From positions 32,001 to 96,000 of the forward strand of contig JAWOCD010000075.1 of NCBI GenBank assembly GCA_046483985.1: a stretch of DNA of 64,000 nucleotides, read 5' to 3'. This DNA is from Promethearchaeia archaeon (GTDB lineage Archaea > Asgardarchaeota > Lokiarchaeia > Sigyniarchaeales > SOKP01). Made by a program: the position numbers and the translations under genes. The notes beneath the pieces are model-generated. The model did no database searches, was not told where the DNA came from, and saw nothing but the letters and a program-made list of their open reading frames with translations. Of this stretch, positions 13,376 through 19,043 are shown piece after piece; position 1 is the stretch's first letter; the number at the start of each line of letters is the position of its first letter.

Positions 13376-15478
13376 ATGAAAATGAACAGATTATTTAAAA
13401 TGCTCTTTAGCAATAAGATCTCCGAAGAAAAGCTGCAAACCCTCCCTTTTATGGATGAAAGATTAGATATTGAAGAGAGAGTAAACGATTTTTTAGAGAG
13501 GCTAACATTGGAAGAGAAAATATCATTACTCTCTGGAAAATGGATTTTTTTTTCCGATAGAATTAAAAGGCTCCGTATGCCTTATTTTAAAACAACTGAT
13601 GGTCCACACGGCGTTGGAAGCGGTGTCTTCTACCTAAAAAAAATGACGTATTTCCCCGTTGCAATCTGCCGAGCTGCTACTTGGAATCCGGATCTCTCCC
13701 AACAATTCGGGGTGGCATTAGCACAAGAGACTCGGGCTACTGGAAGACATCTAATATTAGCTCCCGGTATTAATATCATTCGAACCCCGCTTTGTGGTCG
13801 GAATTTTGAATATCAGACGGAGGATCCTTTTTTAAATAAAAAGTTAGCGGTTGAGGTGGTTAAAGGCATTCAAAGTCAAAAGATCGGCGCTTGTGTAAAA
13901 CATTTTGCAGCAAATAACCAAGAATACAAGCGATTTGAAATAAGTTGCGAAGTAAGTGAACGGGCACTAGAAGAGATTTATTTCCCCGCTTTCGAAGCCA
14001 CCGTACGAGAGGTCGATGTGTGGTCCTTTATGGCATGTTATAACCGATTAAATGGGACTTTTGGATGCGAACATGTTGAACTTTTAAGGGAGAAATTGAT
14101 GAAGCAATGGGGATTTAGCGGATTTGTTGTGTCTGATTGGTTTGCTACACGGGATACTAACACTGTTGAATGTTTAAAAGCTGGACTTAGTTTAGAAATG
14201 CCAAAAGCAATCTGCTACAAGGAAAAAAAGGTGAAGAATGCCCTATCAGAAGGTAAGGTTTCGGAGGATACATTTGAAGATAATTTGCGGAGACTCCTTA
14301 GAGTGATGTTCCGTGTGGGATTATTTGACAGTCCATCCTCTGTTCCCGAAGGAAGTCGCAATACTGAAGAGCACCAAAAAGTTGCACGAAAGATCGCAGA
14401 AGAAGGGATAATTCTATTAAAGAACCAGGACGACCTTCTTCCTTTGGATATTAATGCTGTGAATTTAATTGCCATTTTGGGTCCTAATGCGGATAAGAAA
14501 ATGGCATTTGGGGGAGGAAGTTCTATGGTCAGAGCAAAATATGAAGTGACCCCGGAAGAAGGACTTAAGAGTAAGTGCGAAGGAATGGTAAATACTACTA
14601 CAAAAGTGAATGATGTCGATGCTGCGATCATTTTTGCTGGCCTAAATCATAAAAAACATAATGATCGGGAAAATAAGGATAGACTTAGATTAGACCTTCC
14701 AAAAGAGCAAGTAAAGCTCATCAAAAGAACAGTTAAGAAAGTTCCGAAAACTATTGTGGTGCTCATTAATGGAGGTCCCATCTCTATGGACGATTGGCTT
14801 GCCGATGTGCCCGCAGTTATCGAAGCATGGTATGCTGGGATGGAAGCAGGAAATGTGATTGCAGATGTGATCTTTGGAGATGTAAATCCTTCTGGTAAAT
14901 TATCGGTAACTTTTCCGAAAAAATTGGCTGACAGTCCGGCCCACATTCATCCTTGGACTTATCCTGGTATAAGGAATGTGTACCAGAACGGAGATATTGA
15001 CCTAGAAGCAGATGATTTCCGAGTATATTATAATGAGGGTATATTTGTTGGGTATCGTTATTTTGATACTTTCAATGTGGAGCCGATTTTCCCTTTTGGG
15101 TATGGTCTTTCTTATACTACCTTTAACTTCTCTAATCTTTCCCTAAATAAAGAAAAACTGATGGAAGGAGAGGACTTTAATGTGAAAATAGAATTAGAAA
15201 ATACGGGAAAACGAACAGGTGCTGAAGTTGTCCAAGTTTATATAAAAGATAAAGAATCCAGCGTAAAGCGCCCTGAAAAAGAATTATGTGGATTCAAAAA
15301 AGTCTTTCTTACACCGGGAGAGAAACAATCTGTGGAGATTTCTATCGATTCTGAAGCATTAGCATTTTATGATGAGGGGGAACATCAATGGAAAGTAGAA
15401 AAAGGGAAATTTCTTATTTTAGTGGGAAATTCCTCCCGACATATTAAATTATCACAAGAACTCGAATATATTGGATAA
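13376..15478 (+). CDS. GH3 beta-glucosidase
   Basis: DGPHG, CGRNFEY, KHFAAN, SDW nucleophile motif, YxEGIFVGYRYF, C-terminal Fn3-like domain. Confidence 0.93.
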   Translation: MKMNRLFKMLFSNKISEEKLQTLPFMDERLDIEERVNDFLERLTLEEKISLLSGKWIFFSDRIKRLRMPYFKTTDGPHGVGSGVFYLKKMTYFPVAICRAATWNPDLSQQFGVALAQETRATGRHLILAPGINIIRTPLCGRNFEYQTEDPFLNKKLAVEVVKGIQSQKIGACVKHFAANNQEYKRFEISCEVSERALEEIYFPAFEATVREVDVWSFMACYNRLNGTFGCEHVELLREKLMKQWGFSGFVVSDWFATRDTNTVECLKAGLSLEMPKAICYKEKKVKNALSEGKVSEDTFEDNLRRLLRVMFRVGLFDSPSSVPEGSRNTEEHQKVARKIAEEGIILLKNQDDLLPLDINAVNLIAILGPNADKKMAFGGGSSMVRAKYEVTPEEGLKSKCEGMVNTTTKVNDVDAAIIFAGLNHKKHNDRENKDRLRLDLPKEQVKLIKRTVKKVPKTIVVLINGGPISMDDWLADVPAVIEAWYAGMEAGNVIADVIFGDVNPSGKLSVTFPKKLADSPAHIHPWTYPGIRNVYQNGDIDLEADDFRVYYNEGIFVGYRYFDTFNVEPIFPFGYGLSYTTFNFSNLSLNKEKLMEGEDFNVKIELENTGKRTGAEVVQVYIKDKESSVKRPEKELCGFKKVFLTPGEKQSVEISIDSEALAFYDEGEHQWKVEKGKFLILVGNSSRHIKLSQELEYIG

Positions 15479-15762: not shown

Positions 15763-15945
15763 TCTTCTTTATTGAGATTTGGAAAACCCCTGATAAACAT
15801 AATAGAATATATTTTTCTTCTTAAGATTCTAATATAATGGGGATTTCTCGCCTATATTCGTAAAATTTTTATGATTTCCTATATTTTGATATATACTAAA
15901 GTATATTTTATATTCATGGAAAACACATTAAAGTGAAAATTTCAA

Positions 15946-18225
15946 ATGGTTAAGGTAAAAAATCCACAAGAAATCGCCGAAATGGTTACTGCTGGGTCAT
16001 ATAAGAAAAAACGTCTGTTTTCGATCGTTGCGCATATTGATTGCTGAATGAATGTCTCATTTAGCCAATAACATGGCAAAACGACGGCAACGGACTATTT
16101 AATGCGAAGAGCAGGGCTTATGCGTCCCGAAGATGCGGGAGAGCTCCAAATGACAGACTCAGATGAAGAAGAACAAGCAAGAGGGATTACGATCTTTACT
16201 TCCGTGGTGTTACTTGCGTTTAATGATCCACGGGAAGAAGAAGGGGTAGAACCTTATATTTTCCAAATAAACGATACACCGGGTCACATCTCATTTACTG
16301 GGGAAGTTTCCAGAGCACTTAGAAGCAGTGATGGAGCGTTGATCTTAGTTGACGCTCTTGAAGGAGTGATGACCCAAACAGAGACGAATATTAATCTTGC
16401 TGTTGGAGAGGAATTATGTAAACCTGTTTTATTTATTAATAAAGTTGATAGGTTAATCTCTGAAATCAAACTTTCACCTCAAGAAACATATGATAAAATT
16501 GATGAAATAACAAAACAAGTTAATGAATTGATTAGAAAAGTCAGACCTGAATGGTCAGATTGGGGAGTCGAATTTGCAGAAAATTCCGTTGCCATCGGTT
16601 CTGCAAAAGATGGATGGGGCTTCACTTATGAAATCCTAAAAGAGAACGATTATACACCTGTGAAAGTTTTTGAAAAATATGAGGAAGGAGATATCCAATG
16701 GTTAAGAGAAAATCTCCCGTTGGATGAACCGATGTTGAGAATGGTAGTTGATCATTTACCAGATCCAGTTACAGCCTCGAAATACAGGATACCTGAAATT
16801 TGGCAAGGGGATTTAGATTCTGAACTAGGGCAAGCATTACAGAAAAGTGATCCAAACGGGCCATTATATGGGATTATTTCCAAAATTTTCTTAGATCCTG
16901 CACAAAATTACCGAGCAACCTTAATAGGAAGGATATTTTCGGGTACAATGGACGAATCGGACACTTTATATCTGCTGAACAGTCGAAAGAAAAGTAGAAT
17001 AAAACGGTTAGGCGTAATGGAAATAACAGATATTTTAAATATCAAAGAAATACCAGCAGGGAATATTTTTGCAATGTATGGTCCGATGTGTCCATCCGGG
17101 GAAACTTTTGTGGATAACGTTGGGCTTGCTAAGGACAAAGATAATATTGATGAGATTCCTTCCTTTGAAAATATTAATTATGCGTGCAAAGCAGTAGTTT
17201 CTCGAAGCATTAAACCCAAAAATCCGCATGATATCGCAAAGTTAGGACAAGTGGTAAAGAAATGGTTAATGGCGGATCCAACCGCAGAGTTTACGATGGA
17301 CAAGGATTCTAAGGAGTTTATCCTTTCTGGAATTGATCCTCTGCAGATTGATATCCTTACCAAACGAATTAACAACCAAGTGGAGATCAATATCGGAGAG
17401 CCTATTATTGTATACAGAGAACGAATTACAAACAAAAGTGCCACGTTTCATACTAAATCTTCAAACGGTCATAACAGAATTCAACTGTATATTGAACCCT
17501 TAGATGAAAAGACTCTTGACCTTCTGGAGTCGGGAAAAATTACCGACTTAATGAACGAAGATGAAAGAGCCGAATTATTGAGAGACGTTGGATGGGACAA
17601 AAAAGAAGCAAAGAGAGTGGTAGATGTCTACAAGGGTAATCTCTTAGTAAACGCCACGAAGGGGTTACAAAGATTTGACCGAGTGAAAAGCTACTTATCT
17701 GGCGCTTTCCGTGATTGGTGTGAAAATTGTATTTTAGCGAAAGAACCTGCTTTAGGACTGCGTTTAGTATTTACGGATTTAACCATTCACGAGGACCCGG
17801 CACACACCGGGTATAATCAAATAGCAAGCATGAGTTATGCTGCTTTTTCCCTTGCAATGATGGATGCAGATCCACATCTTTATGAACCTATCCAGAAAAT
17901 TGATATTAAAACTCCCTCTGGCACAGATCCTGGTGTATTAGCCGTCATAAATAAGCATCGTGGAAGAGTTAATAATGTTGTACCCGATGGAGAATATGTC
18001 CGAATCAGCGGACAATTACCCGCCTCGGAAACCGTTGGTATTGCCGATGAAATTCGAGGATCTACTCAAGGACGTGCCTTTTTTGGATATGAATTTCTCG
18101 GATTTGAACGCGTTCCAGCCTCAATAGAGCCAGACTTGATCCTAGAAATTCGCAAGCGAAAAGGTCTTAAAGTCGAGCTTCCTGATGTTTCCTCATGGCA
18201 CCGATTTCTCTATAGAAAAACATAA
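15946..18225 (+). CDS. Elongation factor 2 family GTPase (possibly the Asgard EF-2 paralog); spliced CDS join(15946..16041,16072..18225), 749 aa
   Basis: The ORF-track protein (16102..) has RGITI, DTPGH, NKVD, SAK and EF-2 domains IV/V but no G1 box. The same frame upstream reads MVKVKNPQEIAEMVTAGSYKKKRLFSIVAHID, then 30 nt with two stops, then HGKTTATDYL. Confidence 0.92.
16042..16071 (+). other. Predicted bulge-helix-bulge (tRNA-type) mRNA intron, 30 nt
   Basis: Outer helix CAU/AUG (extended by UUGC/GCAA), central 4-bp helix AUUG/CAAU, 3-nt bulges AU^U and AA^C, inner 9-bp stem GCUGAAUGA/UCAUUUAGC. Cutting after the 2nd nt of each bulge rejoins GAU|CAU (Asp-His). Confidence 0.88.
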
Positions 18226-18332: not shown

Positions 18333-19043
18333 TCACAACCCTAAGACTTGTTTTAATTCCCTTGTATTCTTCAAAACTAAATCTGGATTATATTCTCTTA
18401 TTTTTTCTTCAGAAGCTAATCCTGAGCTCATACATATAATTTTAACATCAGCAGATTTCCCGGCTTGAATATCTGTAACCATATCGCCAATAAAAATTGC
18501 TTTAGAAGGGACAATTTCCCATTTTTTGAGGATTAGCTGAATTCCCTCGGGACTTGGTTTAACCTCACTTACTTCATTAAAACCGATAATTAAGTTAAAA
18601 TATTTTTTTAAATCATATTTTTCAAGAACTTCTTCTGCATGGGTATTTTTGTTATTCGTTAAAACAGCCAACCTTATCCCATCATCAGCTAATGATGAAA
18701 TAATATTATCAATCTCTGGATATAACGTGGCATCTTCTTTATATTCATTGAATTGGTTAAATAAATAAATCCCAACGCGCAATTTTTTGAAATAACTTAA
18801 CCCTTCTAAGAATTCTACTTTTAATAGATCATAGGATTTGAGAATTATCTTAGGGACGGGATAATGTTGTAATTCTTCGATTAAATGAGCCACTTCTTGA
18901 AGCACATCTTCAATATCCACATCAATCTGATACTTTTCTACGGTATCCTCAACAGCTTGTTGAATTGCATTAGTAATATTAAATATTACTCCATCCAAAT
19001 CAAAAATAATTCCCGAGTAATTAGTAAGTTCTAGTTTATCCAT
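18333..19043 (-). CDS. HAD-IA hydrolase (phosphoglycolate phosphatase-like)
   Basis: FDLDG, LTN, KPSP and GDxxxD motifs. Confidence 0.88.
   Translation of the reverse strand: MDKLELTNYSGIIFDLDGVIFNITNAIQQAVEDTVEKYQIDVDIEDVLQEVAHLIEELQHYPVPKIILKSYDLLKVEFLEGLSYFKKLRVGIYLFNQFNEYKEDATLYPEIDNIISSLADDGIRLAVLTNNKNTHAEEVLEKYDLKKYFNLIIGFNEVSEVKPSPEGIQLILKKWEIVPSKAIFIGDMVTDIQAGKSADVKIICMSSGLASEEKIREYNPDLVLKNTRELKQVLGL

What the first reader, a model, noticed from the sequence alone, without database searches (positions are those of the whole stretch)
16025..16082. Canonical bulge-helix-bulge mRNA intron splitting the P-loop of an EF-2-family gene
Seen: the G1 codons GCG CAT ATT GAT | CAT GGC AAA ACG ACG (AHID|HGKTT) are interrupted by exactly 30 nt, TGCTGAATGAATGTCTCATTTAGCCAATAA (16042-16071), carrying in-frame TGA and TAA. 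The RNA folds as outer helix UUGC-G-CAU/AUG-GCAA, central 4-bp helix AUUG/CAAU, two opposed 3-nt bulges AUU and AAC, and a 9-bp inner stem GCUGAAUGA/UCAUUUAGC with an AUGUC loop. Established: archaeal splicing endonuclease (EndA) cuts BHB motifs after the second nucleotide of each bulge and RtcB ligates. Applying that rule gives AU^U and AA^C, the junctions that rebuild the motif and a 749-aa protein. The well-known archaeal protein-gene example is crenarchaeal cbf5; I do not know of one in an EF-2 gene or in Asgard archaea. Inference: this is a real pre-mRNA intron that gene callers miss, leaving an EF-2 call with no G1 box.
Basis: partly seen in the sequence, partly recalled or inferred. Interest (0 to 1): 0.97.

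Follow-up and report, generated by a model that had tools for sequence, protein, structure and literature searches.

The report
tRNA-type intron splits Asgard EF-2 gene
The gene for the essential translation factor EF-2 of this Loki-type Asgard archaeon is broken, inside the codons of its GTP-binding loop, by a 30-base insert shaped like a tRNA intron, so its mRNA almost certainly has to be cut and rejoined by the tRNA-splicing enzymes; the papers I could search report this inside a coding sequence for one archaeal gene only (cbf5).

Summary
Window 16042-16071 is a 30-nt insert with in-frame TGA and TAA between the GAT (Asp) and CAT (His) codons of AHID|HGKTT. It forms a canonical bulge-helix-bulge (BHB). 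The standard EndA cut rule rebuilds a 749-aa EF-2.

Comparative evidence is strong:
- A sister species (93% aa identity, a different sample) has the same intron at the same site. The introns differ at 4 of 30 bases: one compensatory stem pair and two loop bases. Synonymous exon sites are about 70% changed, and dN/dS is 0.01-0.03.
- About 30 orthologues in the same family carry inserts of the same build (1+9+5+9+4+2 nt) at five sites within the first 190 nt. Helices covary, and all predicted splices give open frames.
- The genome encodes EndA and two RtcB.
- At least two other genes in this genome have the same kind of 30-nt intron.
- This copy is the canonical translocase; the second EF-2 copy is the aEF-2p paralogue.

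No RNA data could be found, so splicing itself is inferred. Published precedent is the crenarchaeal cbf5 intron. This scan has noted similar introns before on other DNA, including in a DPANN EF-2 P-loop.

The parts
15946..16041 (+). Exon 1 of aEF-2: 32 codons, MVKVKNP...FSIVAHID
   Evidence: Open frame. It aligns to the N-terminus of intact orthologues. Against the sister species there are 14 synonymous and 4 non-synonymous differences.
16042..16071 (+). 30-nt BHB intron with in-frame TGA and TAA. Build: 1 nt, 9-nt stem arm, 5-nt loop, 9-nt stem arm, 4-nt 3' strand of the central helix, 2 nt.
   Evidence: The same site and build occur in the sister species, with one compensatory pair change.
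16072..18225 (+). Exon 2 of aEF-2: 717 codons plus the stop, starting HGKTT
   Evidence: Pfam GTP_EFTU (from profile position 14), EFG_III, EFG_IV, EFG_C. NCBIfam aEF-2, 584 bits.
16028..16035 (+). Outer helix h, 5' strand (exon 1). G16032 is unpaired.
   Evidence: Pairs listed. The MFE fold contains this helix.
16073..16079 (+). Outer helix h, 3' strand (exon 2)
16036..16039 (+). Central 4-bp helix H, 5' strand (exon 1, AUUG)
   Evidence: In 25 related introns this helix is 100% paired, with changes on both sides in 4 of 4 pairs.
16066..16069 (+). Central helix H, 3' strand (intron, CAAU)
16040..16042 (+). Bulge 1 (AU^U). The predicted 5' cut is between 16041 and 16042.
   Evidence: Read from the sequence. 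The cut rule comes from established knowledge of EndA. It is validated here because all 28 predicted splices give open frames.
16070..16072 (+). Bulge 2 (AA^C). The predicted 3' cut is between 16071 and 16072.
   Evidence: As for bulge 1
16043..16065 (+). Inner hairpin h': 9 bp with the loop AUGUC
   Evidence: The C16044-G16064 pair is U-A in the sister species.

Best explanation
This is a real pre-mRNA intron of the archaeal bulge-helix-bulge type in the canonical aEF-2 (translocase) gene of a Lokiarchaeia-type Asgard archaeon.

Proposed mechanism:
1. The gene is transcribed with the 30-nt insert.
2. Exon 1 codons (His-Ile-Asp), the insert and exon 2 codons (His-Gly-Lys) fold into an hBHBh' motif.
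3. The splicing endonuclease EndA cuts after the second base of each 3-nt bulge (16041|16042 and 16071|16072).
4. RtcB joins the exons. This restores AHIDHGKTT and a 749-aa protein. The 30-nt intron is released, probably as a circle.

Unspliced RNA can give only a 33-residue peptide, because TGA follows two codons into the insert.

Shown here: the structure, its conservation and covariation, purifying selection on both exons, and the presence of the enzymes. Inferred: the cleavage and ligation themselves, and when they happen relative to translation.
For: 1. Geometry. The motif is a canonical BHB, and the cut rule has no free parameter yet rebuilds the universally conserved G1 motif.

2. Sister species (L099/L100, 93% aa identity, ENA ERZ10759773 and Logan ERR6290779). 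It has the same intron at the same site. Four of 30 bases differ: C3>U with G23>A, which is one compensatory pair, plus two loop bases. Meanwhile pS is 0.67 in exon 1 and 0.74 in exon 2, and pN is 0.053 and 0.044. So the intron is far more conserved than synonymous sites, and the gene stayed under strong selection while carrying it.

3. Orthologues. Of 146 orthologues found in the order, about 30 carry inserts, all in the same family. The inserts sit at five sites: after cds nt 90, 96, 103, 183 and 189. All are 30 nt except one of 31 nt, and all share the same build. Removing them by the same rule leaves every CDS stop-free.

4. Covariation across 25 of these introns. The central helix is 100% paired, with 4 of 4 pairs changed on both sides. 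The inner stem is 93.9% paired, with 7 of 9 pairs changed on both sides. None of 500 shuffles reached the observed values. Slid controls were 35-43% paired.

5. Selection among the 18 carriers of the nt-189 intron. Median dN/dS is 0.05. For the exon upstream of the intron, pN is 0.077 and pS is 0.73.

6. Exon codons inside the motif are fixed in carriers. TCAGAT occurs in 18 of 18 carriers against 11 of 26 non-carriers. GCGCAT occurs in 3 of 3 carriers against 1 of 41 non-carriers.

7. Enzymes. One EndA gene of 200 aa and two RtcB genes are present.

8. The gene is needed. This copy keeps the HxDxxHxG loop of domain IV. The only other EF-2 copy (C59) lacks it, and no Dph2 was found. This matches the aEF-2 / aEF-2p split described in PMC6143161.

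9. Two other genes of this genome are split in the same way, by 30-nt perfect BHBs inside conserved motifs. Pfam domains continue across each break.
Against: No RNA evidence exists. No RNA run holds the locus, and no spliced form was found in the protein collection or in metagenome contigs.

The thermodynamic MFE prefers a 3x3 internal loop (-20.3 kcal/mol) over the staggered-bulge BHB register (-15.2 kcal/mol). This is usual for BHBs but is not support.

In most orthologous introns at other sites, the 3 bp of outer helix next to the motif are paired in only 39% of cells. Those are therefore relaxed motifs that need a broad-specificity EndA.

Only one EndA subunit was detected by Pfam, so the enzyme type is not established.

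Archaeal transcription and translation are coupled, so how ribosomes are kept off unspliced RNA is unexplained.
Confidence: 0.87

Rival explanations
1. Spliced, but conditionally. The intron acts as a gate on EF-2 synthesis, in the way IRE1/RtcB splicing gates HAC1/XBP1, so that EndA/RtcB activity sets how much translocase is made. This refines the main reading rather than opposing it.
For: The intron is conserved well beyond neutral expectation, with 4 of 30 changes against about 70% at synonymous sites. The introns contain early in-frame stops. All five sites lie in the first 190 nt of a 2.25-kb gene. The target is a global translation factor.
Against: Close relatives do without any intron in this gene. 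Sister pairs at 82-91% nt identity differ in whether the intron is present. That argues against an indispensable regulatory role. Structural conservation is needed for splicing alone. No expression data exist.
Confidence: 0.15
2. An unspliced insertion. The gene is a pseudogene, or it is expressed from the internal ATG at 16102 as a 707-aa protein without a P-loop, as gene callers annotate it.
For: The ORF list gives 16102-18225 as the longest ORF. Public calls of 707 and 702 aa exist. No RNA evidence contradicts it.
Against: Exon 1 is open and under purifying selection (14 synonymous against 4 non-synonymous differences, dN/dS 0.03). The intron shows compensatory change. Twenty-eight interrupted orthologues all keep both exons intact. 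A translational GTPase without G1 cannot bind GTP (established knowledge). This is also the only canonical translocase copy.
Confidence: 0.04
3. Programmed translational bypassing. The ribosome hops over the 30 nt, as it does in phage T4 gene 60.
For: A stable hairpin and a stop codon lie just after the take-off codon.
Against: No landing codon matches the take-off GAU; the sequence before CAT is AAUAA. The 31-nt and phase-1 introns in relatives, and the exact 3-nt bulge / 4-bp helix geometry that covaries with the exon, are not requirements of hopping.
Confidence: 0.02
4. An assembly or sequencing artefact, or a recent DNA-level insertion of a small palindromic element with no RNA processing.
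For: Short palindromic inserts can arise from mobile elements or from misassembly.
Against: An independent contig has the insert. So does a sister species from another study, and so do dozens of genomes. There is no target-site duplication at the borders. The insert has persisted through saturation of synonymous sites.
Confidence: 0.01

Closest known systems
BHB intron of the cbf5 (pseudouridine synthase) pre-mRNA in Crenarchaeota (Watanabe 2002; Yokobori 2009, PMC2738675)
   Same: A short BHB intron inside an archaeal protein-coding frame, removed by the tRNA-splicing endonuclease and ligase. It shows lineage-specific presence and loss. Gene prediction fails at the site.
   Different: The gene (EF-2 translocase) and the phylum (Asgard, Lokiarchaeia-type) differ. 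Here there are five insertion sites within 100 nt of one gene across one family. The 30-nt build is stereotyped, and the intron sits inside a catalytic motif. cbf5 splicing was shown experimentally; this one was not.
Archaeal tRNA and rRNA BHB introns (EndA/RtcB pathway), including the heavily interrupted tRNA genes of Asgard archaea (bioRxiv 10.64898/2026.10.13.758758)
   Same: [quoted passage not shown] Gains are repeated and lineage-specific. Presumably the same enzymes act.
   Different: The host RNA is an mRNA, so the exon half of the motif must also encode protein. The reading frame, rather than the tRNA fold, defines correct splicing. That preprint does not treat mRNAs.
BHB intron in the 5' UTR of Haloferax volcanii HVO_1309 (PMC7714728)
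   Same: An mRNA substrate of EndA that was shown in vitro and by circRNA-seq.
   Different: It lies in the untranslated leader, is 46 nt long and does not interrupt a reading frame.
IRE1/RtcB unconventional splicing of HAC1/XBP1 mRNA in eukaryotes
   Same: A spliceosome-independent endonuclease plus RtcB removes a very short intron (26 nt in XBP1) from a coding sequence and changes what is translated.
   Different: The endonuclease (IRE1) and the recognition motif (two stem-loops) differ. That system is regulatory and stress-induced. No such regulation is shown here.

Membership tests
Archaeal BHB (EndA-type) intron | [quoted passage not shown] | tested here: met
   Helix 16036-39 with 16066-69; bulges 16040-42 and 16070-72
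Archaeal BHB (EndA-type) intron | Flanking helices h (exon-exon) and h' (intron) of at least 2 bp | tested here: met
   Outer helix of 3 + 4 bp with one bulged G; inner helix of 9 bp. In orthologous introns at other sites, h' is kept (93.9% paired) but the adjacent h is weak (39% paired), so those motifs are relaxed.
Archaeal BHB (EndA-type) intron | Cutting after the second base of each bulge yields a functional mature RNA | tested here: met
   The rule restores AHIDHGKTT and a 749-aa frame. The same rule gives stop-free CDSs in all 28 related cases.
Archaeal BHB (EndA-type) intron | The structure is maintained by compensatory change | tested here: met
   The C-G pair is U-A in the sister species. 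Of 16 pairs, 13 show changes on both sides, and 0 of 500 shuffles reach the observed values.
Archaeal BHB (EndA-type) intron | The host encodes the splicing endonuclease and RtcB ligase | tested here: met
   PF01974 and PF02778 in one 200-aa ORF on C32; two PF01139 genes
Archaeal BHB (EndA-type) intron | The spliced RNA or the excised (circular) intron is observed | not testable with these tools
   No RNA run holds the locus. Two junction and intron pattern scans of metagenome contigs found nothing.
Canonical archaeal EF-2 (translocase) as opposed to the aEF-2p paralogue | Domain IV diphthamide loop HxDxxHRG is retained | tested here: inconclusive
   This copy reads HEDPAHTG, so both His are kept but Arg is replaced by Thr. 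The C59 copy has no such loop. Both copies score just under the aEF-2 equivalog cut-off: 584-620 and 637 bits against 738.
Programmed translational bypass (T4 gene 60 type) | Matching take-off and landing codons flank the skipped stretch | tested here: not met
   The take-off codon is GAU. No GAU or GAC lies at the 3' border.
Pseudogene | Relaxed selection (dN/dS near 1, further lesions) | tested here: not met
   dN/dS is 0.03 in exon 1 and 0.013 in exon 2 against an intron-bearing sister species. There is no other stop or frameshift in 749 codons.

The most novel reading that the evidence does not exclude
Lokiarchaeia-type Asgard archaea carry a turning-over population of stereotyped ~30-nt BHB mini-introns in protein-coding genes. 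These introns are gained, slid and precisely lost on short evolutionary time scales. Evidence here: at least five sites and at least three unrelated intron sequences in EF-2 alone, at least three interrupted genes in this genome, and sister species that differ in presence.

If this is right, the closest prokaryotic relatives of eukaryotes routinely need to mature mRNAs before translation. They would also have an active, spliceosome-independent route of intron gain into conserved, structure-compatible codons.
Probability: 0.45. Interest if true: 0.9.

Novelty: new member of a known kind. Interest (0 to 1): 0.8.

Why it matters
Published work documents splicing inside an archaeal coding sequence for one gene family only. 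A 2020 paper says so explicitly: cbf5 (PMC7714728). Here the sole canonical translocase gene of an Asgard archaeon cannot make a GTP-binding protein unless its mRNA is spliced.

Relatives show repeated gains and losses of such introns in the same gene. If RNA data confirm this, three things follow:
- mRNA splicing by the tRNA machinery is a regular part of gene expression in the lineage closest to eukaryotes.
- There is a tractable system for asking how introns enter genes, and how translation is kept off unspliced RNA when there is no nucleus.
- Current annotation has a systematic error. EF-2 is deposited as 702-707-aa proteins without a P-loop, for example in Loki_b32.

Tried and rejected
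RNA evidence:
- No RNA holder was listed for the locus. Only DNA contigs could be laid.
- A scan of metagenome contigs for the exact spliced junction of G000 and its sister found nothing. A scan for further copies of this intron also found nothing.
- The protein collection holds no full-length (spliced) form closer than 80% identity. It holds only the 707-aa truncated call of the sister species.

Covariance model. A model built from 22 introns of other genomes (R1) did not retrieve the G000 intron in the window; its best hits were AT-rich hairpins with E of 0.1 or more. The G000 intron shares only 22-42% ungapped identity with the introns at sites A, C, D and E. Only the build is shared, not the sequence.

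Genome-wide scans with loose structural filters showed no excess of the canonical topology over the mirror topology: 54,376 against 54,165 raw hits, and 398 against 415 after the ORF and coding filters. The scan therefore cannot be used as a census. Only the strict 30-nt perfect-stem hits were interpretable.

MAFFT mis-gapped the G000 row (A1), so G000 was left out of the covariation count.

I first placed the G003 intron after cds nt 106. The correct position is nt 103, phase 1. The tree and the dN/dS values are not affected materially.

Rejected readings:
- Stop-codon readthrough: it needs two readthroughs and a 10-aa insert in the P-loop, and relatives have 31-nt and phase-1 inserts.
- Group I or group II intron, or intein: 30 nt is far too short.

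Full report
**What is in the sequence**

The + strand from ATG 15946 reads 32 codons ending ...FSIVAHID at 16041. Thirty bases follow (16042-16071), translating as C*MNVSFSQ*. From 16072 there are 717 open codons starting HGKTTATDYL. The longest conventional ORF starts only at ATG 16102 and gives 707 aa.

Exon 2 carries GTP_EFTU from profile position 14 onward, followed by the EF-G domains II, III, IV and C. So the G1 loop is split between the two pieces.

- Outer helix: 16028-31 and 16033-35 with 16073-79.
- Central helix: 16036-39 with 16066-69.
- Bulges: 16040-42 and 16070-72.
- Inner stem: 9 bp with a 5-nt loop.

The strand order is h-H-bulge-h' on the 5' side and h'-H-bulge-h on the 3' side. 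This is the order in pre-tRNAs with an intron at 37/38, where the anticodon side pairs with the intron (my own knowledge of Marck and Grosjean 2003). Cutting after the second bulge base joins GAT to CAT. A one-base shift would not give the same product.

The BHB register costs -15.2 kcal/mol. The MFE fold is -20.3 kcal/mol and keeps both flanking helices but closes a 3x3 loop instead of the staggered bulges.

**Is it real DNA?**

A Logan contig from a freshwater-sediment run covers 15945-16340 with one mismatch and no gap.

A sister species has the same insert at the same place. It is 93% identical in protein, and it appears in ENA assembly ERZ10759773 and Logan run ERR6290779.

**The sister species settles the pseudogene question**

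Between the two genes, exon 1 has 14 synonymous and 4 non-synonymous differences (pS 0.67, pN 0.053). Exon 2 has pS 0.74 and pN 0.044.

The intron differs at only 4 of 30 positions. Two of these are the partners of one stem pair (C-G to U-A). The other two lie in the hairpin loop.

The insert has therefore been kept, with its structure, while synonymous sites went nearly to saturation. Both exons stayed under strong purifying selection over the same period.

**Relatives**

The genome is a Lokiarchaeia-type Asgard archaeon. Its relatives are deposited as Promethearchaeota or Lokiarchaeota.

I searched 154 genomes of the order with an intact orthologue (P0001). The gene was found in 146. About 30 copies are interrupted, all in the same family; none of the 18 orthologues in the other three families is interrupted.

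I fetched and dissected the interrupted genes. The inserts sit at five places, numbered by the cds position they follow:
- nt 90 (H|I): 4 genomes.
- nt 96 (D|H): this genome, its sister, and G035 with a 31-nt insert.
- nt 103 (inside the Lys codon of GK): G003.
- nt 183 (D|S): 2 genomes.
- nt 189 (D|D/E): about 19 genomes.

Two genomes carry two introns each.

All but one insert are 30 nt, and all have the same build of 1+9+5+9+4+2. Removing each by the same cut rule leaves every CDS free of stops and alignable to the intact genes.

**Covariation**

I counted pairs on 25 of these introns, leaving G000 out:
- The central helix, made of exon and intron, is paired in 100% of cells. All four pairs change on both sides, following the exon sequence at each site.
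- The inner stem is 93.9% paired, with 7 of 9 pairs changed on both sides.
- No shuffle out of 500 reaches the observed values. Sliding the partners drops pairing to 35-43%.
- The three outer base pairs next to the motif are paired in only 39% of cells. So most of these introns are relaxed motifs.

Asgard EndA is reported as the (alpha-beta)2 type with the L1 loop, which is linked to broad specificity (PMC5829648). I detected only one subunit by Pfam in this genome. G000's own motif has a good outer helix.

**Selection in carriers**

Among the 18 carriers of the nt-189 intron, median dN/dS is 0.05. The exon upstream of the intron has pN 0.077 and pS 0.73.

Exon codons inside the motif are frozen in carriers. 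TCAGAT occurs in 18 of 18 carriers against 11 of 26 non-carriers. GCGCAT occurs in 3 of 3 carriers against 1 of 41 non-carriers. These genomes are related, so this is not an independent-sample statistic.

**History**

On the protein tree, presence is patchy. Sister genes at 82-91% nucleotide identity differ in whether they have an intron, or in which site it occupies.

The G000 intron has no sequence likeness to those at the other sites (22-42% ungapped identity). Those at nt 90, 183 and 189 are 63-67% alike over the hairpin. The nt-183 and nt-189 sites both follow an xCAGAT hexamer, which fits sliding or re-insertion.

I take this as at least three independent origins plus losses. I cannot tell gains from losses without a species tree.

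**Why the cell needs the splice**

The genome has two EF-2 family genes:
- The interrupted one keeps HEDPAHTG in domain IV.
- The other, on contig C59, is 31-34% identical and has nothing in that place.

No Dph2 was found in a genome that is 97% complete.

This is the pattern of canonical aEF-2 plus the aEF-2p paralogue described for dph-lacking Asgard archaea (PMC6143161). The interrupted gene is therefore the presumptive sole translocase.

**Machinery and context**

One EndA gene and two RtcB genes are present.

ARAGORN finds only 22 tRNA genes.

My own strict scan found two more 30-nt perfect BHBs that join coding frames:
- One is in an AMP/thymidine-phosphorylase-family gene, splitting DKHS|TGG.
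- One is in a UDP-sugar dehydrogenase gene, splitting GMGY|VGIP.

In both, the Pfam domains continue across the break.

**Known or new?**

Full-text searches found no report of BHB introns in Asgard protein-coding genes or in any EF-2 gene. A 2020 paper states that cbf5 is the only reported case apart from its own 5'-UTR example. The 2026 Asgard intron preprint deals with tRNA genes only.

This scan has noted many similar candidates on other DNA. They include a 33-nt intron in a DPANN EF-2 P-loop and a Loki-type E2 gene said to have spliced reads. I did not test those notes.

**Limits**

Splicing itself is inferred, because no RNA run, spliced contig or spliced protein entry was found. Also open are the EndA subunit composition, the timing of splicing relative to translation, and the direction of gain and loss events.

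Noticed in passing
L098:1129-1158 (- strand) = G000 contig C32:149428-149457: A 30-nt perfect BHB intron splits an AMP/thymidine-phosphorylase-family gene at DKHS|TGG. The central helix is CAGC/GCUG, the stem is 10 bp and the loop is CAU. Exon 1 carries Glycos_trans_3N. Exon 2 starts at position 11 of Glycos_transf_3.
   Followed up: partly
L056:467-496 (+) = G000 contig C45:48366-48395: A 30-nt perfect BHB intron splits the NAD-binding loop of a UDP-glucose/ManNAc dehydrogenase-family gene at GMGY|VGIP. Exon 2 starts at profile position 11 of UDPG_MGDP_dh_N.
   Followed up: partly
L054:289-2520 (-) = G000 contig C59: A second EF-2 family gene (744 aa, 31% identical) lacks the diphthamide-loop histidines, so it is the aEF-2p paralogue. 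No Dph2 (PF01866) was found in the genome.
   Followed up: partly
whole genome G000: ARAGORN detects only 22 tRNA genes in a genome that is 97% complete. Several of those have odd or very long 'introns'. This suggests that many tRNA genes are too interrupted to be recognised.
   Followed up: no
L046 (G070 contig C3, 97,096 nt = Loki_b32 record) and P0121; also P0002: Public annotation deposits these EF-2 genes as 702-aa and 707-aa proteins that start after the P-loop, because the first exon is missed. Many 702-aa entries in the protein collection probably share this cause.
   Followed up: partly
L027 (G035) and L051 (G074): Two orthologues carry two introns each in the first 190 nt of the gene. 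G035 has them at nt 96 (31 nt) and nt 189. G074 has them at nt 90 and nt 189.
   Followed up: yes
window 13376-15478 (+) and 18333-19043 (-): The neighbours are a GH3 beta-glucosidase-like gene upstream and a HAD-family hydrolase downstream. The HAD gene is syntenic in the sister species; the upstream gene is not.
   Followed up: no
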